DNA from: a virus
Lineage: Duplodnaviria > Heunggongvirae > Uroviricota > Caudoviricetes
Direction: 5' to 3' (one strand)
DNA: 9,156 nucleotides
Virus record (IMG/VR): IMGVR_UViG_2579778919_000004
Coordinates: 1 to 9,156 of that record
The notes beneath the pieces were generated by a model. It was not told the DNA's origin. It worked only from the letters and a program-made list of their open reading frames with translations, and did no database searches. Made by a program: the position numbers and the translations under genes. Positions 2 to 8,298 of this stretch are shown piece after piece; the first letter of the stretch is position 1; each line of letters begins with the position of its first letter.

Positions 2-700
2 TCAGGTGTCTGGATATCGCACCTGCTGGAAAACCTGCCGGAAGAGAAACTGGCATCGGCGCTGAAAGATGACAACCCGAACTGGGAGTATATCGACGGC
101 GAAATCGTCAAGCAGGGATCGCTGGCCCACAGTCAACTTGATATCCCGGAACTCCAGCGCCGGGGGCTGGTCATTCTGGCTTCGGAGAGTAAGGATTTTC
201 GTCTGCTGGCGCATCTGCTGAGAACCCTGCAACACGCCGGTGATCCTCATCTCGCATTGCGCCTGCTGGCGCTGTATGTGGAGCATTACTGGGCGGTGGC
301 TGCGCCGCAGAATATGGCGCATAAAAAACGCTTTGCCAGCCAGGTCATTAAACGCTTTGAAACAGGTATTGAAGTTTTTTCACAGAACGCCGCCACAGCG
401 CAGCGCGATGCGCTGTCAGGGGAACTGGCAAAACTGGCGCAATGCTGGCAGTCACATAACGCCCCGGAACTGGCACAGGCTACTGATGATCTTTTTGCCC
501 TGTACCAGCGTGCGTTTAATCGTGCGGCACCGGCTCCTGTCCCCACTCCGGCGGCCTCCGGTAGTTCACCACAGACCACCGCCACGTCTGAAAGCGGCGT
601 GACGCAACCCAGTGCTCCGGCTCCCCAAATCGTCATCGACAGTCACGACGACAAAGCCTGGCGCGACACGCTGTTAAACATGACGGGCGTTAGGGGTTAA
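2..700 (+). CDS. 3' portion of a host chromosomal gene (5' end lies outside the window); unidentified protein with a Pro/Ala/Ser/Thr-rich linker; possible ImpA_N/TssA-like N-terminal domain; probable prophage integration target
   Basis: Seen in sequence: the frame starting at position 2 is open with no stops to TAA at 698-700; the first in-frame ATG at 257 is probably internal. This stretch is visibly more GC-rich than the phage DNA to its right. The C-terminal part has a low-complexity linker (PAPVPTPAASGSSPQTTATSESGVTQPSAPAP). Motifs SKDFRLLAHLL and LALRLLALYVEHYW are reminiscent of ImpA_N-type domains, recalled from memory and unverified. The stop overlaps the integrase stop on the opposite strand (TTAA at 697-700). 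Confidence 0.55.
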   Translation, partial: SGVWISHLLENLPEEKLASALKDDNPNWEYIDGEIVKQGSLAHSQLDIPELQRRGLVILASESKDFRLLAHLLRTLQHAGDPHLALRLLALYVEHYWAVAAPQNMAHKKRFASQVIKRFETGIEVFSQNAATAQRDALSGELAKLAQCWQSHNAPELAQATDDLFALYQRAFNRAAPAPVPTPAASGSSPQTTATSESGVTQPSAPAPQIVIDSHDDKAWRDTLLNMTGVRG

Positions 701-2010
701 CTTACTGATTTTAATAATCCTCCCGTACTGTTCTCGTGGCTATGGGGCATCAATGGGGCAAAATCTGCCAGCTTCTGATTCAGCATTGCGATCTGCTCTG
801 CGCTGCTGTCAGCCATCCATGCACCGTAAACATTGAACACCATCTGCGCGCTCGCATGCCCCATCTGACTGGCAATAAAACTCGGGTTTGCACCAGCAGA
901 TAATGACCAGCACGCATAGGTATGTCGTGACTGGTACGCCTTTCTGTGTCTGATCCCCGCGCGCTTTAGTGCAGCTTCCCATGAGTCGCCTACTGAATCG
1001 ACCCGGTAGATAAATCCGACCTGCTTACTGCGCCTGACCACATGCGGGTTAAAGACGAATGTACACTCATGGGTCACCGAACGACCGTACTCACGTAACT
1101 GCACTTCAATGTGATATTGCCTGCCCAGCCTTGTCATTTCAGCCTGATTTTTCAGGATACTGATTGCGGGCTGGATAAGATGCACCACTCGATCTGTGCT
1201 TGCCTCGGTTTTCGGTAGAGTGAACTCACCAAGTTTCGTATAATTACGCCTGACGGTAATTGTTCCCGCCTTCAGGTCGATATCTTCCCAGGCCAGGGAA
1301 ACCAGTTCCCCGTGACGCATTCCTGTGTACACTGCTAATGACCACAGGTTTTTCGTCTGCTGATGCCGGCATGCATCTATCAGGCGAATAAATTCATCAC
1401 GAGACAGAGGATCTGGTTCTGCCCTGGCTTTTTTCAGAGGCTTAATTCCCTCGAATGGATTCACCTCTAAGTAACCGTGATCCGCAGCAAACTGAAACAT
1501 TCCGGCCATTGTCGTCATGTAATAGTTCACAGTAACAACGCTTCGCCCTTTTGTCGGGGATTTGTTTTTCGTCGGATTCTGGTAACCAGTTAGCAAATCT
1601 TTCCTGAGATACAGCAATTCCTCTTTGGTTACTGCTGACGCCAGGCGATTACCTCCGATCCTCGGAACCATATTCCTTGCGACAGACTCATAGCGATTGA
1701 ATGCGTTCGCGCAGATTTCCATCCGTTTCAGATCCAGCCATTTTTCTTCAAGTTCTTTCACTGTAATGTCTTTTTTACTTACACCAAAAGCCTTGAGATT
1801 AGGGGAGTCAGGAAACTGGGTTGCATAATCAAAGGTTCCTGTGCGGATGGCAAAACATACTGATATCCGCAGTTCCCCGGCTATCTTCCTGTTCTTAGCG
1901 GTGTCAGGGACACCGAGACTTTCCCTGACACGCTTACCTTTAAAATTAAACCAGATGCGTAATGTGCCACCGTGGTTTTCGACGCCTGTTGGATATGTGA
2001 CTTTATCCAT
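697..2010 (-). CDS. int: Phage tyrosine integrase (site-specific recombinase), 437 aa
   Basis: ATG at 2008-2010 preceded by a GGAGG Shine-Dalgarno 5 nt upstream. The C-terminal catalytic region has tyrosine-recombinase hallmarks: YTGMRHGEL (Arg box), SRHTYACW, QMGHAS and NVYGAWM (candidate nucleophilic Tyr). The N-terminal region (RIWFNFKGKRVRESLG ... GTFDYATQFP) resembles Rac/lambdoid integrases. Position at the prophage end next to xis. Confidence 0.95.
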   Translation of the reverse strand: MDKVTYPTGVENHGGTLRIWFNFKGKRVRESLGVPDTAKNRKIAGELRISVCFAIRTGTFDYATQFPDSPNLKAFGVSKKDITVKELEEKWLDLKRMEICANAFNRYESVARNMVPRIGGNRLASAVTKEELLYLRKDLLTGYQNPTKNKSPTKGRSVVTVNYYMTTMAGMFQFAADHGYLEVNPFEGIKPLKKARAEPDPLSRDEFIRLIDACRHQQTKNLWSLAVYTGMRHGELVSLAWEDIDLKAGTITVRRNYTKLGEFTLPKTEASTDRVVHLIQPAISILKNQAEMTRLGRQYHIEVQLREYGRSVTHECTFVFNPHVVRRSKQVGFIYRVDSVGDSWEAALKRAGIRHRKAYQSRHTYACWSLSAGANPSFIASQMGHASAQMVFNVYGAWMADSSAEQIAMLNQKLADFAPLMPHSHENSTGGLLKSVS

Positions 2011-3260: not shown

Positions 3261-3481
3261 CGTGCCGCCTCTCGCTGGATTGTCTTGTGGGCTCGCAACA
3301 TATCGCGGGATTTTCCGGACAAAACCGTCTTCATGAAGAACATTCCACTGCGGTTTGCAACTATTCCTGGAGTGCAGATCAGCGTGGCGTCTACCACCCG
3401 GTTATGTTTACGGAATTCAAACACCGTGCTGGTGATAACGATGTTCGCCACGGCGCCGTAGTCCTGGTATTGGATTTTCAT
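3257..3481 (-). CDS. Hypothetical small phage protein, 74 aa
   Basis: ATG at 3479-3481 preceded by GAGGAG with an 8-nt spacer; overlaps the stop of the upstream clamp-like gene (ATGA). Confidence 0.7.
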   Translation of the reverse strand: MKIQYQDYGAVANIVITSTVFEFRKHNRVVDATLICTPGIVANRSGMFFMKTVLSGKSRDMLRAHKTIQREAAR

Positions 3482-4044
3482 GCCAGATGCTCCTCAACAA
3501 TTTTGAAAGCATCATCACGGCATGGCATCACGACGAACTCAGGGTTACCGTATGTAGTGTTGATCACTGGATCGAACTGAATGCGTACCGCTCCAGCCTC
3601 ACCGGAAGGGCGTAACTGGATGGGAATAAACTTTCGCTCGCGACCAAACATCTTTTCCGGATAGCTGAGGTATTCAGCCTGGATAACCGGATTGATACTG
3701 AAATCCACTTTTTTCGGGATGACGCGTTCCATATCAGGAAAACGACCATCAACAAGTTTGATGCCAGTGATCAAGATCCGACGCTCGAACGTGTCGCGGT
3801 GAATGGCAAAGGCTTCTTTGTTGAATACCAGTTCAGTGGTTTCCGCTTTCGCCGGAACCGGTCCTTCAAACTGGACGATGATGTTTTTCTTCGTCCGGAT
3901 GCCGTGCTCCATGCGCAGTGCTACATGCCCGTTAGTTGACTCGATATATTTCGGAGTGATGTGCACACCATTCAGGTAGTAACGGACATCATTTTTTGCA
4001 GCGCATACCAGAGCTGCGCGAATGAGTTTCGACTGGATGATCAT
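3478..4044 (-). CDS. Truncated DNA polymerase III beta sliding clamp (DnaN)-like protein, 188 aa, corresponding to clamp domain II plus an abbreviated domain III
   Basis: Three colinear motifs match E. coli DnaN as I recall it: DVRYYLNG (DnaN domain II, with flanking K-LI-A and T-GH-LA context), KLVDGRFPD..RV.PK (DnaN TSKLVDGRFPDYRRVLPK) and the C-terminal VVMP.R (DnaN ends AAYVVMPMRL). The ORF is about half the length of DnaN (366 aa) and lacks domain I. Strong tandem SD (GGAGGTGGAGG) before the ATG at 4042-4044. Confidence 0.7.
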   Translation of the reverse strand: MIIQSKLIRAALVCAAKNDVRYYLNGVHITPKYIESTNGHVALRMEHGIRTKKNIIVQFEGPVPAKAETTELVFNKEAFAIHRDTFERRILITGIKLVDGRFPDMERVIPKKVDFSINPVIQAEYLSYPEKMFGRERKFIPIQLRPSGEAGAVRIQFDPVINTTYGNPEFVVMPCRDDAFKIVEEHLA

Positions 4045-5461: not shown

Positions 5462-5880
5462 CGAATACCCTCCGGTTTACTGGCCTGTAGTTCGTCAACC
5501 TCTTTAACGAAGCGGTCGTGCATGGCGTCCCACTTCTCACACCATTTCGTCATGTCACGCTTAATGGCCAGAATGCGGCGAAGACGTCGAACACAGCGCT
5601 GGTGGGCTCCGATGTACTCAACTGTTGTGCCTCCTCGCTGCCAACAATTCAGCTCTGGATTGAGTGGGTGGACTGCCTGCACATCCGGGTGCCGCTGCTC
5701 GAAGCCGGAGCGATAAAACGCTTCTGAAGTCATAAAGAACGCCAGATAGCGGATCGCCGTATCTCGCGTGAAGCATTTTTTGATACGACCGTGGCGTACT
5801 GCCACGAACAGTGGGCCAACTGGCGTATCGTGTTTCTGTAATGCAAGGTCAATCATGCTTACGGTGCGTTTATCGTTCAT
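5458..5880 (-). CDS. Hypothetical phage protein, 140 aa, with four Cys and a basic stretch (possible metal- or nucleic-acid-binding)
   Basis: ATG at 5878-5880 overlapping the upstream stop (ATGA). Cys at KKCF, NCWQ, HQRCV and KWCEKW; arginine-rich RCVRRLRRILAIKR. No recognised family. Confidence 0.72.
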   Translation of the reverse strand: MNDKRTVSMIDLALQKHDTPVGPLFVAVRHGRIKKCFTRDTAIRYLAFFMTSEAFYRSGFEQRHPDVQAVHPLNPELNCWQRGGTTVEYIGAHQRCVRRLRRILAIKRDMTKWCEKWDAMHDRFVKEVDELQASKPEGIR

Positions 5881-6098
5881 TTCCGATCCTTAACTTTGCT
5901 GTATCGCTCGTGACTCATTACTTCCCAGTTCTTTCCGCCATCGCGGGAGAGTAGCCGCCAGCGGTGATTAACCTTGAGGCTCAAATTACCGGAGCCGTGC
6001 ATACGGCAGGGGTGAATGCGCCTTGCTCTGAACTGGCTTAAAACGTGTGCTGCTTTGAGGTGAACCCACTCAGGAATTCGAATTGCTGTCAGTGCCAC
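5877..6098 (-). CDS. Hypothetical small phage protein, 73 aa, with a probable GTG start
   Basis: The first codon of the track ORF is GTG, not ATG, and is preceded by AGGAG with a ~7-nt spacer. The 5' end overlaps the 3' end of the upstream gene by 29 nt. An internal start is an alternative. Confidence 0.55.
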   Translation of the reverse strand: MALTAIRIPEWVHLKAAHVLSQFRARRIHPCRMHGSGNLSLKVNHRWRLLSRDGGKNWEVMSHERYSKVKDRK

Positions 6099-6321
6099 CA
6101 GTTAGCTCCTGTATACGTAACCCGGCTTCGCGAGCCATTTTGATAAAAGTGTCCAGTGCGCAAATATGTTCGTCGTCGAGCAGCCGGCGGTCGCATGTCA
6201 CACGCCCTTTTTCTATGTAAAGAACCACGCGTCCGGTGAAATCCGGAAGCACATGCAGATCCACGTTGAGGACTGGGGGGGGGATCTGCATTCCGTGCAT
6301 AATTGTTTGTTGTGAGGCCAT
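6070..6321 (-). CDS. Hypothetical small phage protein, 83 aa; contains a C9 homopolymer in its coding sequence
   Basis: ATG at 6319-6321 preceded by GGAGGAATTAACTG. The codons for IPPP (ATC CCC CCC CCA) form a 9-nt C run, seen as G9 on the + strand at ~6275-6283. Confidence 0.65.
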   Translation of the reverse strand: MASQQTIMHGMQIPPPVLNVDLHVLPDFTGRVVLYIEKGRVTCDRRLLDDEHICALDTFIKMAREAGLRIQELTGGTDSNSNS

Positions 6322-6683
6322 CAGTTAATTCCTCCACATACGTATTTCTCTTTCGCGTGTTTAATTAACTCCGCAAAAATCTCGTCAACAATCATCTTTC
6401 CGGTTTCGGTCAGATATTCGGTGTGTCCATTGATATCGACGCTTTTCATATACGTCTGGCGAAGAAATGTTTCCGCTTCTGTGTTGAATTCAGTCCGATC
6501 CTGTTTTTCGAAGCGCAGCAAAAGTTTCAGTATTGATTCTTCGTTAATCTCGATAACCTGAATATTGTCATCGGGCATATTTACGGAGAGACAATAACCT
6601 CCTGTCTTGCGCTTCATTCGGTTTAATGTCGCAATAGCAATGCGGCGGCGATAAATTTCAATGGTGTTGTTTTTCATTGTCAC
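6321..6683 (-). CDS. Hypothetical phage protein, 120 aa; first gene of the tightly coupled block
   Basis: ORF with ATG at 6681-6683 (a second ATG lies two codons in); moderate SD-like GGGCGG upstream. Its stop overlaps the start of the next gene (TGATG). No recognised domain. Confidence 0.68.
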   Translation of the reverse strand: MTMKNNTIEIYRRRIAIATLNRMKRKTGGYCLSVNMPDDNIQVIEINEESILKLLLRFEKQDRTEFNTEAETFLRQTYMKSVDINGHTEYLTETGKMIVDEIFAELIKHAKEKYVCGGIN

Positions 6684-6776: not shown

Positions 6777-7073
6777 TTATCTTTCAGAAACGTCATTATT
6801 GCCCCCCCCTTTGAGGTGTTCTCCATCGTCATTTTTTGTCATGAAGCAAAGCTCATTAAGTAATGAGGTGAATCTTCCCGCTACCTTCACATCAGTGCGT
6901 GTGATTGCGGGCATAAGTAACTGGGTAAATTCAGCACGCAGCTCATGCGCATATTTATTGGCACACTCTGCTGTTTTGTGGGCTTTATTTATGTAAAGAA
7001 AGTCGCCATCCTGATTGGCTGGATGGACTTTGTTATTCACGATTTCACTTCTGACGATAATATTCATTTGCAT
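6777..7073 (-). CDS. Hypothetical protein, 98 aa (or 96 aa from the ATG at 7065-7067); AT-rich moron-like gene with a G8 tract near its 3' end
   Basis: The ORF lies in AT-rich DNA. GAGG sits only 2 nt before the first ATG but 8 nt before the third-codon ATG, which favours the latter start. The codons for KGGGN contain G8, seen as C8 on the + strand at ~6802-6809. Confidence 0.62.
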   Translation of the reverse strand: MQMNIIVRSEIVNNKVHPANQDGDFLYINKAHKTAECANKYAHELRAEFTQLLMPAITRTDVKVAGRFTSLLNELCFMTKNDDGEHLKGGGNNDVSER

Positions 7074-7434: not shown

Positions 7435-7560
7435 CTCATTGGCTCCGTTGTTTGCCGATGAAATGAGAATACTTAAGTATTAATTGAAGGTCAATGGTAT
7501 TAATACAAAAAGAATAATAGTTTTCTTATGTATTTGTTATTGAAGATTATTTTAGTAATA
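7435..7560 (-). promoter_or_regulatory. Predicted leftward early promoter and operator region (PL/OL analogue)
   Basis: On the minus strand: TTGACC (-35; + strand ggtcaa at ~7489-7494), a 17-nt spacer, then TATTCT (-10; + strand agaata at ~7466-7471), about 25 nt upstream of the ATG at 7434. A perfect 14-bp palindrome AATACTTAAGTATT (~7468-7481) overlaps the -10 and spacer, and a second palindrome GTATTAATAC (~7497-7506) lies just upstream of the -35. Both share the TAATAC half-site found in the cI-cro intergenic region. Confidence 0.4.
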
Positions 7561-7598
7561 AAAAAGCCGACGCTATGGTCGGCTTGGTGCTTTTTTGG
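7559..7598 (-). terminator. Rho-independent terminator downstream of the repressor gene (hairpin flanked by an A-run and a T-run, so potentially bidirectional)
   Basis: AAAAAA-AAGCCGAC-gctatg-GTCGGCTT-ggtgc-TTTTTT: a perfect 8-bp stem with a 6-nt loop. On the minus strand the stem is followed directly by TTTTTTATT, about 20 nt past the repressor stop. Confidence 0.6.
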
Positions 7599-7605
7599 CA
7601 GCGGA

Positions 7606-8298
7606 TCAGAAGATTGTTGATACCCAAAACAGTCTTCCTAAAACTTCAAGACTATCCATGTCTACTTCTTCGTCAGGGTATTCATCAGAGTTGTAGCTTC
7701 TGATTGTCACCTTATCTGGCCCAGATCTGTAGAGGATTTTTAACCTTTTCCATCCACCTTGGTTGATGCCGTAAATTTTACCATCCACGATACGCTTGTC
7801 ATGGCAGTTTATGGCAACAGTTGAGCCATCAGCGATCACTGGCTCCATGCTATTTCCGTGTGCAGCAAAGCATAGAACGCCATCACCATCACTATTAGCT
7901 CCCACCTTTCGCAATGTTGCTTTGGAAAATCTAAGTTTTTTTCCATTGTAATCATCATTAAGGGCGCTGCCATCTCCACATGCGAACTCGATATCCTTCA
8001 AGTAAGGCACCTCTACCTCATCATCCTCAAGCGGCGTTTGCTTATCCCATGGATCTATACCAAACATTCTTTGTTCTGGCGTTTTTGCTGGCCCCATGGT
8101 GCCTTCACCAGTGCTTAACCATATGGGATCTACATCCAGTGCTTTGGCTATATCCACGATTTTTCCGCTGGACTGAGCTTTTCCTGAGGTTAGTTTTTGT
8201 ATGGCCCCCTGGCTTACCCCAACCCTATGCGCTAATTGACTTTGAGTAGCCCCAGCATGAGCCATCGCCAGCCTTAGTCTTTCTGCAAGTGTGTTCAT
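7606..8298 (-). CDS. CI-like prophage repressor: N-terminal XRE-type HTH plus C-terminal S24 (LexA/UmuD-like) autopeptidase domain, 230 aa
   Basis: N-terminal HTH (QSQLAHRVGVSQGAIQKLTSG). C-terminal S24 signatures: GNSMEP (catalytic Ser in a G-x-S-M context) and downstream WKRLK (candidate catalytic Lys). Candidate autocleavage site Cys-Gly in FACGDG, as in UmuD. ATG at 8296-8298 preceded by GGAG. Divergent from a cro-like gene. Confidence 0.9.
   Translation of the reverse strand: MNTLAERLRLAMAHAGATQSQLAHRVGVSQGAIQKLTSGKAQSSGKIVDIAKALDVDPIWLSTGEGTMGPAKTPEQRMFGIDPWDKQTPLEDDEVEVPYLKDIEFACGDGSALNDDYNGKKLRFSKATLRKVGANSDGDGVLCFAAHGNSMEPVIADGSTVAINCHDKRIVDGKIYGINQGGWKRLKILYRSGPDKVTIRSYNSDEYPDEEVDMDSLEVLGRLFWVSTIF

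What the first reader, a model, noticed from the sequence alone, without database searches (positions are those of the whole stretch)
6275..6283. C9/G9 homopolymeric tract inside the 83-aa gene
The coding sequence ATC CCC CCC CCA (IPPP) forms a 9-nt C run, which is unusually long for enterobacterial coding DNA and prone to slipped-strand mispairing. A +1 or -1 slip would move translation into the overlapping alternative frame represented by track ORF 6089..6337 (which reads the same tract as DPPPSP). This is either a phase-variable switch or a sequencing or assembly indel hotspot.
Basis: seen in the sequence. Interest (0 to 1): 0.45.

Follow-up and report, generated by a model that had tools for sequence, protein, structure and literature searches.

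The report
Slippage-prone C9 run in prophage gene
A run of nine C's near the start of a small prophage gene of unknown function is a real mutational hot spot: about 45% of related prophages that keep an unbroken run carry a length that breaks the reading frame, so it behaves as a slippage on/off switch, a known kind of device that is rare in enteric bacteria and their phages.

Summary
The run is real: G9 at 6275-6283 on the + strand, which is C9 (ATC CCC CCC CCA, Ile-Pro-Pro-Pro, codons 13-16) in the 83-aa minus-strand gene 6070..6321. This gene belongs to phrog_340 (function unknown) and lies in the early-left operon of a lambdoid prophage.

Among 33 distinct related sequences with an unbroken run I find C6, C7, C8, C9 and C10, and gene calls imply C11, C13 and C15. 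Fifteen of the 33 are out of frame, against 0 of 15 with an interrupted run. Identical 820-nt flanks carry C9 or C10. One widespread lineage repaired a C8 allele with a 7-nt duplication, and a relative then slipped again to C7. The reading frame after the run is intact in every locus.

A sequencing artefact is unlikely. A second G-run 0.5 kb away varies independently, and out-of-frame alleles recur in independent assemblies.

The alternative ORF 6089..6337 is not conserved, a Pro-Pro-Pro run is not required, and the gene is not the partner of the ParE-like gene downstream.

Verdict: a genuine replication-slippage frameshift switch or hot spot. Adaptive phase variation is unproven. It is a new member of a known kind.

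The parts
6275..6283 (-). C9 homopolymer (G9 on the + strand). It covers codons 13-16 (ATC CCC CCC CCA, IPPP) of the 83-aa gene and is the hypermutable run.
   Evidence: Relatives carry C6 to C10 in DNA, and gene calls imply up to C15.
6070..6321 (-). 83-aa gene of family phrog_340, function unknown. Its ATG (6321..6319) overlaps the TGA stop of the upstream gene by one base.
   Evidence: phrog_340 E=1.9e-26. 318 homologues, all named hypothetical or carrying no useful name. Q4, Q5, G10, I13, P14 and P16 are nearly invariant.
6330..6335 (-). Shine-Dalgarno-like GGAGGA, 8 nt upstream of ATG 6321.
   Evidence: Read directly from the sequence. Function is inferred.
6335..6337 (-). GTG in the alternative frame. 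Gene callers use it as the start for C8 and C11 alleles, giving the 88-89-aa 'MEELTDGLTTNNYARNAD-PPP-VLNV...' products. It lies inside the Shine-Dalgarno sequence of the real start and has no good one of its own.
6213..6215 (-). TAG reached from ATG 6321 after a -1 change (C8 or C11). The product is 35-36 aa.
   Evidence: Simulation.
6089..6091 (-). TGA reached from ATG 6321 after a +1 change (C10 or C7). The product is 76-77 aa and Arg-rich. The stop starts 4 nt after the GTG start codon of the next gene.
   Evidence: Simulation.
6253..6291 (.). Perfect 10-bp inverted repeat (coding strand ATGCAGATCC ... GGATCTGCAT) bracketing the run. Each arm holds a GATC site (6258-6261 and 6283-6286).
   Evidence: The fold z-score is -1.7, which is not significant. 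Relevance is unknown.
5877..6098 (-). Downstream ParE-like ORF (73 aa). It starts at GTG 6098 with AGGAG at 6106-6110 and overlaps the 83-aa gene by 29 nt.
   Evidence: PF24732 E=2.3e-20. It is a separate mosaic module.
6321..6683 (-). Upstream gene of family phrog_1737 (118 aa from ATG 6677). Its stop is coupled to the start of the 83-aa gene.
6802..6809 (-). Second, independently hypervariable run in the same operon: G8 on the coding strand, preceded by AAA. It sits at the junction of the 98-aa ORF 6777..7073 and a 37-aa ORF that starts at ATG 6796.
7466..7494 (-). pL-like promoter match (TTGACC, 17 nt, TATTCT) downstream of the repressor gene and its terminator (7564-7585). It would drive the operon that holds both runs.
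   Evidence: Consensus scan only. The repressor gene is 7606..8298, with HTH and S24 peptidase domains.

Best explanation
The C9 run is a genuine hypermutable mononucleotide repeat. Slipped-strand mispairing during DNA replication adds or removes single C's. This shifts the reading frame of a small accessory gene (phrog_340, function unknown) in the repressor-controlled early-left operon of a lambdoid prophage of Citrobacter, Enterobacter and E. coli.

Lengths of 6, 9, 12 or 15 keep the frame from the translationally coupled ATG 6321 and give 2 to 5 prolines. The window is in this 'on' state. Lengths of 8 or 11 end translation after 35-36 aa. Lengths of 7 or 10 give a 76-77-aa nonsense product. 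These alleles are off, or at best leaky or altered at the N-terminus.

Shown here: the run, its heritable length polymorphism, the link between frameshifts and an unbroken run, the intact downstream frame, and repair by compensation.

Inferred: replication slippage as the cause, the off status of out-of-frame alleles, and reversibility within lineages.

Not shown: that switching is selected for.
For: (1) Length polymorphism. Among 48 distinct 400-nt haplotypes, 33 have an unbroken run of 6 or more C's: C6 x3, C7 x2, C8 x7, C9 x14, C10 x7.
(2) Frameshifts are confined to unbroken runs. 15 of 33 are out of frame, against 0 of 15 for interrupted or short versions (CCCCACCCC, CCCATCCCC, CCACCCCCA, CCCCCGCCC and others); Fisher p=0.0017.
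(3) Changes are recent and recurrent. Identical 820-nt flanks carry C9 (L038) or C10 (L019, L043). Flanks with 1 difference in 820 carry C6 or C8 (L015, L006). Flanks with 5 differences in 820 carry C9 or C10 (L030, L029). At least 19 state changes are needed on a tree of 35 haplotypes.
(4) The frame after the run is intact in all 57 loci, including every out-of-frame allele. Frameshifted alleles are therefore not old pseudogenes.
(5) Selection restores the frame. One lineage has C8 plus a tandem duplication of CCTCAAC (IPPQSSTLNV). Its protein is indexed in 152 blocks of the collection, and the same lineage is C7 in L058.
(6) Gene calls in public genomes record the other states: 88-aa alt-start proteins (C8, one of them indexed in 234 blocks), DPPPPV (C11), IPPPPPV (C15), third-frame starts MECRS/MGFRS, and 64-aa calls starting at Val20.
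(7) It is not a platform artefact. The length of the second run is uncorrelated with this one. C8/G10 is reproduced in four independent samples.
(8) Established knowledge: indel rates rise exponentially with homopolymer length in E. coli (PMC8510543). Homopolymer tracts at the 5' end of genes act as reversible inactivation switches, mutating about 1000 times faster than point mutation in inlA (PMC2831843).
Against: No read-level data were available, so heterogeneity within a single culture and the switching rate are unknown.

The run is not extremely unstable. Four near-identical contigs (0-1 differences in 2067 nt) all carry C8 and G10. The C8 allele is widespread in one Enterobacter prophage lineage. 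My rough estimate is about 400 times the per-site substitution rate, from three close pairs (3 run differences against 6 substitutions in 2460 nt). That fits an ordinary 9-nt G/C run in a mismatch-repair-proficient enteric host and is slower than classical contingency loci.

The gene sits in a repressed prophage operon. Weak selection alone could let frameshift alleles persist.

The function of the protein is unknown: there is no Pfam, NCBIfam, PADLOC or PDB match, and the AlphaFold2 model has mean pLDDT 55. No phenotype can be attached to on or off.
Confidence: 0.72

Rival explanations
1. Neutral hot spot and gene decay. The mutational mechanism is the same, but the gene is dispensable in lysogens. 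Out-of-frame alleles are then dead ends drifting in repressed, possibly defective, prophages, and there is no switch function.
For: 45% of unbroken-run alleles are out of frame. The operon lies behind a repressor gene and a pL-like promoter, so it is probably silent in lysogens. The C8 allele is stably inherited and widespread. Function is unknown. The run arises from Pro-Arg-Pro by a single substitution.
Against: No out-of-frame allele has any further lesion in the 58-65 codons after the run (57 of 57 intact). The frame was restored by a 7-nt duplication in a widespread lineage. All 15 interrupted or short alleles are in frame. The N-terminal residues Q4, Q5, G10, I13, P14 and P16 are nearly invariant. 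So the protein is under purifying selection and frameshifts are young or reversible.
Confidence: 0.35
2. Recoding rescue. Out-of-frame alleles still make the normal protein, because ribosomes shift +1 on CCC-C (for C10 or C7) or -1 (for C8), or because RNA polymerase slips on the run. Run length would then tune the amount of protein rather than switch it on or off.
For: CC[C/U]-[C/U] is a well-documented +1 slippery site for tRNA-Pro, with up to about 1% frameshifting in E. coli when placed at the second codon (PMC4519876). A +1 shift in a C10 allele would recreate exactly I-P-P-P-V (inferred from the sequence). Pro-Pro-Pro is known to stall ribosomes (general knowledge, not tested here). The downstream frame is intact in every allele.
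Against: There is no significant stimulatory RNA structure downstream of the run (z=-1.7; the only stem brackets the run itself). There is no Rfam match. Unprogrammed frameshifting is low, 1% or less. The compensating 7-nt duplication shows that C8 was costly enough to be repaired. Transcriptional slippage is documented mainly for A/T runs (my recollection, not checked here).
Confidence: 0.15
3. Sequencing or assembly artefact. The true length is always 9 (or 6), and the other lengths are homopolymer miscalls.
For: Homopolymers are error-prone on some platforms. Many of the sequences are draft or metagenome assemblies of unknown platform. No reads were available.
Against: The same C8 allele occurs in two NCBI assemblies and two ENA metagenome assemblies with 0-1 differences in 2 kb, and its protein is indexed in 234 blocks of the collection. 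The lengths of the two runs are uncorrelated. C6 alleles (one proline fewer) and the C8 plus 7-nt duplication allele are in-frame, heritable variants. Fifteen of 33 out of frame is far above consensus error rates.
Confidence: 0.05
4. A stable poly-proline coding run, or a programmed dual-frame gene. Either Pro-Pro-Pro is selected at the protein level, or the overlapping ORF 6089..6337 is a second product reached by programmed frameshifting.
For: P14 and P16 are nearly invariant. The alternative frame is open for 82 codons in the window.
Against: The middle residue of P-x-P is R, P, T, S, L, C, H or I across the family, and Arg is commonest. The proline count varies from 2 to 5. The alternative frame has stops at codon 24-29 after the run in about a third of run-bearing lineages and at codon 7 in most homologues without a run.
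Confidence: 0.03

Closest known systems
Homopolymeric-tract (simple sequence repeat) phase variation at the 5' end of a coding region, for example the poly-C run in Bordetella pertussis bvgS, the poly-G runs in Campylobacter jejuni and Neisseria surface genes, and the poly-A run in Listeria inlA (PMC2831843, PMC1891110)
   Same: An unbroken mononucleotide run lies within the first 16 codons. One-nucleotide gains and losses shift the frame. Length varies between very close relatives. The downstream frame stays intact.
   Different: The host is an enterobacterial lambdoid prophage, in mismatch-repair-proficient bacteria where such loci are rare. The run is short (9) and probably switches more slowly. 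The gene has unknown function and lies in a repressed operon. No switching rate or phenotype has been measured.
Hypermutable poly-G tracts in Campylobacter phages (Sorensen et al. 2021, Cell Rep 35:109214, seen only as a reference in PMC10877375; the target genes are my recollection, not checked here)
   Same: The G/C homopolymer is phage-encoded, and its length variation creates subpopulations with different gene expression.
   Different: As I recall, those are virulent phages of a host with weak mismatch repair, and the tracts lie in receptor-binding or structural genes with a demonstrated host-range phenotype. Here the phage is temperate, the gene is an early accessory gene, and no phenotype is known.
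CCC-C +1 ribosomal frameshift sites read by tRNA-Pro (PMC4519876, PMC7577736)
   Same: The run consists of consecutive CCC-C motifs, and a +1 shift in a C10 allele would restore the exact protein.
   Different: No stimulatory element or conserved second frame is present. The frameshift here is encoded in the DNA and inherited.
Type II toxin-antitoxin pair with a ParE-family toxin
   Same: A small upstream gene overlaps a ParE-like ORF (PF24732) by 29 nt.
   Different: The ParE-like module follows unrelated upstream genes of 117, 130 and 135 aa; the 135-aa gene checked (phage AsXd-1) ends in the same ...SYSDTNS tail. Many phrog_340 genes (76-78 aa, for example Fels-1 STM0898.2n) have no ParE-like gene downstream.

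Membership tests
Simple-sequence-repeat contingency (phase-variable) locus | An uninterrupted mononucleotide repeat of about 7-8 nt or more inside the 5' part of an ORF or in its promoter | tested here: met
   C9 at codons 13-16 of an 83-codon ORF.
Simple-sequence-repeat contingency (phase-variable) locus | Repeat length differs between closely related strains or elements while the flanks stay (near-)identical | tested here: met
   C9 against C10 with 0 of 820 flank differences. C6 against C8 with 1 of 820. C9 against C10 with 5 of 820. Overall range C6 to C10 in DNA, and up to C15 from gene calls.
Simple-sequence-repeat contingency (phase-variable) locus | Length changes move the ORF in and out of frame while the rest of the gene stays intact | tested here: met
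   In-silico products for C6 to C12. The downstream frame is intact in 57 of 57 loci. 15 of 33 unbroken-run alleles are out of frame, against 0 of 15 interrupted or short ones.
Simple-sequence-repeat contingency (phase-variable) locus | Frequent, reversible switching within a clonal population (typically 1e-5 to 1e-2 per division) | not testable with these tools
   No reads or cultures were available. Indirect evidence points to a moderate rate: four near-identical contigs share C8/G10, and my estimate is about 400 times the per-site substitution rate.
Simple-sequence-repeat contingency (phase-variable) locus | On and off states give different phenotypes with conditional selective value | not testable with these tools
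   Protein function is unknown.
Programmed ribosomal frameshift or dual-coding gene | A second reading frame conserved as coding across relatives | tested here: not met
   The alternative frame is interrupted at codon 24-29 in about a third of run-bearing lineages and at codon 7 in most homologues without a run.
Programmed ribosomal frameshift or dual-coding gene | A stimulatory RNA structure or element next to the slippery site | tested here: not met
   The fold of the run plus 90 nt downstream has z=-1.7, and 11 of 200 shuffles fold as well. The only strong stem encloses the run itself. No Rfam family matches.
ParE-type toxin-antitoxin pair (83-aa protein as antitoxin) | Adjacent, overlapping small genes with the antitoxin upstream | tested here: met
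   29-nt overlap, and the ParE-like ORF has its own AGGAG.
ParE-type toxin-antitoxin pair (83-aa protein as antitoxin) | The two genes consistently occur together as a unit | tested here: not met
   The identical ParE-like protein follows unrelated upstream genes of 117, 130 and 135 aa (AsXd-1). phrog_340 genes ending ...EEISND lack it (Fels-1).
ParE-type toxin-antitoxin pair (83-aa protein as antitoxin) | A recognisable antitoxin or DNA-binding domain in the upstream protein | tested here: not met
   No Pfam, NCBIfam or PADLOC hit, and no PDB hit below E=0.7 even with a profile. The structure model is too poor to judge.

The most novel reading that the evidence does not exclude
This family of Citrobacter, Enterobacter and E. 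coli lambdoid prophages carries a set of G/C homopolymer contingency runs. At least two lie in the early-left operon (6275-6283 and 6802-6809), and a third lies about 3 kb further on in relatives. On this reading the runs are maintained because they randomly switch accessory early genes (phrog_340 and its neighbours) on and off. Each lysogen population would then release or harbour phage variants that differ in some host-takeover, anti-defence or exclusion function. That would be repeat-based bet-hedging in a temperate phage of mismatch-repair-proficient enteric bacteria.
Probability: 0.2. Interest if true: 0.65.

Novelty: new member of a known kind. Interest (0 to 1): 0.45.

Why it matters
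Homopolymer frameshift switches are textbook in Neisseria, Haemophilus, Campylobacter, Helicobacter and Bordetella. They are scarce in Enterobacteriaceae, and as far as I know are barely described in their temperate phages.

Here one short stretch of a prophage early operon holds two independently variable G/C runs, with dozens of natural alleles in every frame and a documented frame-restoring compensation.

If the switching is functional, it would be a simple handle on an uncharacterised, widespread phage gene family: phrog_340 has 318 homologues in the protein search. It would also be an example of phage-encoded bet-hedging.

If the switching is not functional, there is still a practical lesson. 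Annotation pipelines call this gene in at least four ways (83, 88, 75 and 64 aa) or miss it entirely, purely because of run length.

Tried and rejected
1. Antitoxin hypothesis for the 83-aa protein. It was prompted by the ParE_like Pfam hit on the overlapping downstream ORF. I rejected it because the ParE-like module follows unrelated upstream genes, and because many phrog_340 genes have no ParE-like gene downstream.

2. Function by homology or fold. Pfam, PHROGs, PADLOC, NCBIfam, and PDB sequence and profile searches gave nothing beyond phrog_340 'unknown function'. AlphaFold2 with 54 sequences gave mean pLDDT 55, so I ran no fold search.

3. Dual coding of ORF 6089..6337. Rejected because the frame is not conserved.

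4. A frameshift-stimulating RNA structure or a known RNA family. None was found.

5. Selection for poly-proline. Rejected because the middle residue and the proline count both vary.

6. Platform artefact. I tested it through the correlation between the two runs (none) and through reproducibility across samples.

7. Very close relatives of the window. Exact look-ups of the window's own neighbouring proteins returned only the window's own contig (ATJZ01000057.1, GCA_000482045.1) and one E. coli with the Pro-Arg-Pro version.

8. Literature. I found no paper on this locus or on the accession.

9. The tree-based rate is weak. Mosaic recombination inflates the tree length to 1.08 substitutions per site, so I relied on close pairs instead.

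Full report
**Observation**

The + strand carries G9 at exactly 6275-6283. On the minus strand this is ATC CCC CCC CCA, giving Ile13-Pro-Pro-Pro16 of an 83-aa ORF, 6070..6321. It is the only homopolymer of 9 or more bases in the window. Under independent base frequencies, 0.04 G/C runs of that length are expected. G8 on both strands matches 3 times against 0.14 in dinucleotide-preserving shuffles, and 1 of 200 shuffles reaches 3.

**Context**

All genes in this part of the window lie on the minus strand. In transcription order they are:
- an HTH plus S24-peptidase CI-like repressor, 7606..8298;
- a terminator-like hairpin (7564-7585) and a pL-like promoter match (7494..7466);
- small ORFs;
- a phrog_1737 gene, 6321..6683;
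- the 83-aa gene (phrog_340, E=1.9e-26);
- a ParE-like ORF, 5877..6098 (PF24732, 2.3e-20);
- phrog_1886 and phrog_1515 genes, a Bro-N protein, and an integrase at 697..2010.

This is the early-left operon of a lambdoid prophage. The window is the whole contig ATJZ01000057.1 of assembly GCA_000482045.1.

The ATG of the 83-aa gene overlaps the TGA of the upstream gene (TGATG), with GGAGGA 8 nt upstream.

The protein has 318 homologues in Citrobacter, Enterobacter, Klebsiella, Salmonella, E. coli and others; all are named hypothetical or carry no useful name. It has no Pfam, NCBIfam, PADLOC or PDB relative. The AlphaFold2 model is unusable, with mean pLDDT 55.

**Origin of the run**

More distant homologues read ATC CCC CGC CCC/CCA (Ile-Pro-Arg-Pro). 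One G-to-C change creates C9. Across the family the middle residue of P-x-P is R, P, T, S, L, C, H or I. Pro-Pro-Pro is therefore not required by the protein.

**Length polymorphism**

I collected DNA from species-representative genomes, IMG/VR viral contigs, metagenomes, annotated E. coli genomes and phages and exact-protein look-ups.

Among 48 distinct 400-nt haplotypes, 33 keep an unbroken run of 6 or more C's:

| Run length | Haplotypes |
|---|---|
| C6 | 3 |
| C7 | 2 |
| C8 | 7 |
| C9 | 14 |
| C10 | 7 |

Fifteen of these 33 are out of frame with the ATG. All 15 haplotypes with an interrupted or short run are in frame (Fisher p=0.0017).

Public gene calls record further states:
- 88-aa proteins starting MEELTDGLTTNNYARNAD-PPP-VLNV. 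These are C8 alleles called from the alternative-frame GTG at 6337. One such protein is indexed in 234 blocks of the collection.
- DPPPPV, which implies C11.
- IPPPPPV, which implies C15.
- Third-frame starts MECRS/MGFRS, which imply C10 or C7 where CAT GGA creates an ATG.
- 64-aa calls starting at Val20.

**How fast the run changes**

Identical 820-nt flanks carry C9 (L038) or C10 (L019, L043). Flanks that differ at 1 of 820 positions carry C6 or C8 (L015, L006). Flanks that differ at 5 of 820 carry C9 or C10 (L030, L029). A tree of 35 haplotypes needs at least 19 changes of run state, although mosaicism makes that tree rough.

From the three close pairs (3 run differences against 6 substitutions in 2460 nt), the run changes about 400 times faster than an average site. 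That is a coarse figure.

The run is not wildly unstable, however. Four independent samples of one Enterobacter prophage lineage (0-1 differences in 2067 nt) all carry C8, and all carry G10 at the second run.

This fits what is known: indel rates rise exponentially with run length in E. coli (PMC8510543), and 5' homopolymer tracts mutate about 1000-fold faster than point mutation (PMC2831843).

**Consequences of each length (simulation)**

| Length | Product from ATG 6321 |
|---|---|
| C6, C9, C12 | 82-84-aa protein with 2-4 prolines |
| C8, C11 | Stops at TAG 6213-6215 after 35-36 aa. The conserved core is then in frame only with GTG 6337, which lies inside the real Shine-Dalgarno sequence |
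| C7, C10 | 76-77-aa Arg-rich product ending at TGA 6089-6091, which starts 4 nt after the GTG start codon (6098) of the ParE-like ORF |

That frame is not conserved. It has stops at codon 24-29 after the run in about a third of run-bearing lineages, and at codon 7 in most homologues without a run. It is an incidental open frame.

**Evidence that the protein matters**

- The frame after the run is intact (58 or 65 codons) in all 57 loci, including every out-of-frame allele.
- Residues Q4, Q5, G10, I13, P14 and P16 are nearly invariant. The alternative N-termini are therefore unlikely to be equivalent.
- One lineage repaired a C8 allele by a tandem duplication of CCTCAAC. The net change is +6 nt, and the protein reads IPPQSSTLNV. 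It is indexed in 152 blocks of the collection. Within that lineage the run has moved again: C7 in L058, and C10, C11 and C13 are implied by gene calls.

**Artefact check**

- The second run's length is uncorrelated with the first (Spearman -0.02, n=29). This argues against platform-wide homopolymer miscalling.
- Out-of-frame alleles are reproduced in independent NCBI and ENA assemblies.
- The in-frame C6 allele and the duplication-compensated allele are clearly heritable.
- I could not inspect reads.

**Other mechanisms considered**

A +1 ribosomal shift on CCC-C would restore the exact protein from C10 alleles. Such shifts reach about 1% at favourable positions (PMC4519876). There is no stimulatory structure, however: the fold z-score is -1.7, and the only strong stem is a 10-bp inverted repeat (ATGCAGATCC / GGATCTGCAT) that encloses the run. 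There is also no Rfam match. I keep leaky rescue as a minor rival.

The antitoxin idea for the 83-aa protein fails on co-occurrence. The identical ParE-like protein follows unrelated upstream genes of 117, 130 and 135 aa. The 135-aa gene in Aeromonas phage AsXd-1 ends in the same ...SYSDTNS tail. phrog_340 genes ending ...EEISND, and Fels-1 STM0898.2n (IPLP, no run), have no ParE-like gene downstream.

**Comparison with known systems**

The locus meets the sequence-level criteria of a simple-sequence-repeat contingency locus: a 5' intragenic unbroken run, length polymorphism between near-identical relatives, frame toggling, and an otherwise intact gene. Two defining criteria could not be tested: frequent reversible switching within a clone, and a phenotype.

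The closest analogues are homopolymer switches in bacterial surface or virulence genes (PMC2831843, PMC1891110) and the poly-G tracts of Campylobacter phages (Sorensen 2021, seen as a reference in PMC10877375). The differences here are a temperate enterobacterial phage, an early accessory gene of unknown function, a modest run length, and a mismatch-repair-proficient host.

**Verdict**

The hypermutability is real and heritable, and it is not an assembly artefact. The most likely mechanism is replication slippage that toggles the frame of a selected but conditionally dispensable prophage gene. Adaptive phase variation remains a hypothesis; I put it at about 0.2 in its strong, multi-run form. 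It is a new member of a known kind and of moderate interest.

Noticed in passing
window 6802-6809 (C8 on +, G8 on the coding minus strand), with the AAA in front of it: A second hypervariable run lies about 0.5 kb upstream in the same operon. Relatives carry G7, G8, G9, G10 or G11, the preceding A-run varies from A2 to A7, and a few are interrupted (GGGGGGTGG, GGGTGGG). Its length is uncorrelated with the C9 run. It sits at the end of the 98-aa ORF 6777..7073 and 5 nt before ATG 6796 of a 37-aa ORF, so it may double as that ORF's ribosome-binding site. Depending on length, the upstream ORF ends at 91-99 aa or fuses to the small ORF (127-131 aa by gene call or ORF length).
   Followed up: partly
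window 6832-6837 (T6 on +, A6 on the coding strand): The window has A6 where the four aligned relatives have a 5-nt stretch (AAAAA in three, CCAAA in one). This extra base, not the G-run, is why the window with G8 gives a 98-aa ORF while L055 with G8 gives a fused ORF (127 aa by gene call).
   Followed up: partly
window 6253-6262 and 6282-6291: A perfect 10-bp inverted repeat (ATGCAGATCC / GGATCTGCAT on the coding strand) brackets the C9 run. Each arm contains a GATC (Dam) site, and one of them shares its G with the run. Whether a hairpin or methyl-directed repair geometry affects slippage here is unknown. The RNA fold is not significant (z=-1.7).
   Followed up: no
window 5877-6098 (-) and the last ~9 codons of 6070..6321: The ParE-like ORF (PF24732, 73 aa) is a mobile mosaic module. 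The identical protein is indexed in 1365 blocks of the collection, behind unrelated upstream genes of 84, 117, 130 and 135 aa, usually with the same 29-nt overlap (not the 117-aa case). The phrog_340 genes and the one 135-aa gene checked (phage AsXd-1) then end in a similar ...D(S/T)(N/D)(S/T)N(S/T)-type tail. No cognate antitoxin is evident.
   Followed up: partly
related loci L024, L025, L037, L030/L042, about 3.0-3.9 kb upstream of the C9 run in operon orientation (beyond the end of the window): A third recurrent G/C run (C8 to C10, flanked by ...GACCAG and TGACACACC...) lies on the far side of the immunity region in relatives. This suggests that the phage group carries several such runs.
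   Followed up: no
window 6070-6321 and 5877-6098; L059 and L071 (the same contig, ATJZ01000057.1): In the gene calls on record for the window's own assembly (GCA_000482045.1), neither the 83-aa gene nor the ParE-like ORF is called; there is a gap between the 118-aa and 140-aa genes. The exact 83-aa sequence is also absent from the protein collection. Elsewhere the same gene is called as 64, 75, 83, 85 or 88 aa, depending on run length.
   Followed up: partly
L054-L058 (locus coordinates about 1540-1580): A 7-nt tandem duplication (CCTCAAC CCTCAAC) immediately after a C8 run restores the reading frame (IPPQSSTLNV). This compensated allele is widespread, indexed in 152 blocks of the collection, and its run has since varied again.
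   Followed up: yes
window 3478-4044 (-): A 188-aa protein matches PHROG families annotated as RusA-like resolvase (phrog_3007, 1e-64) and DNA polymerase processivity factor. It also has a weak, sub-threshold Pfam match to the central domain of the DNA polymerase III beta subunit. The annotation is odd and was not examined further.
   Followed up: no
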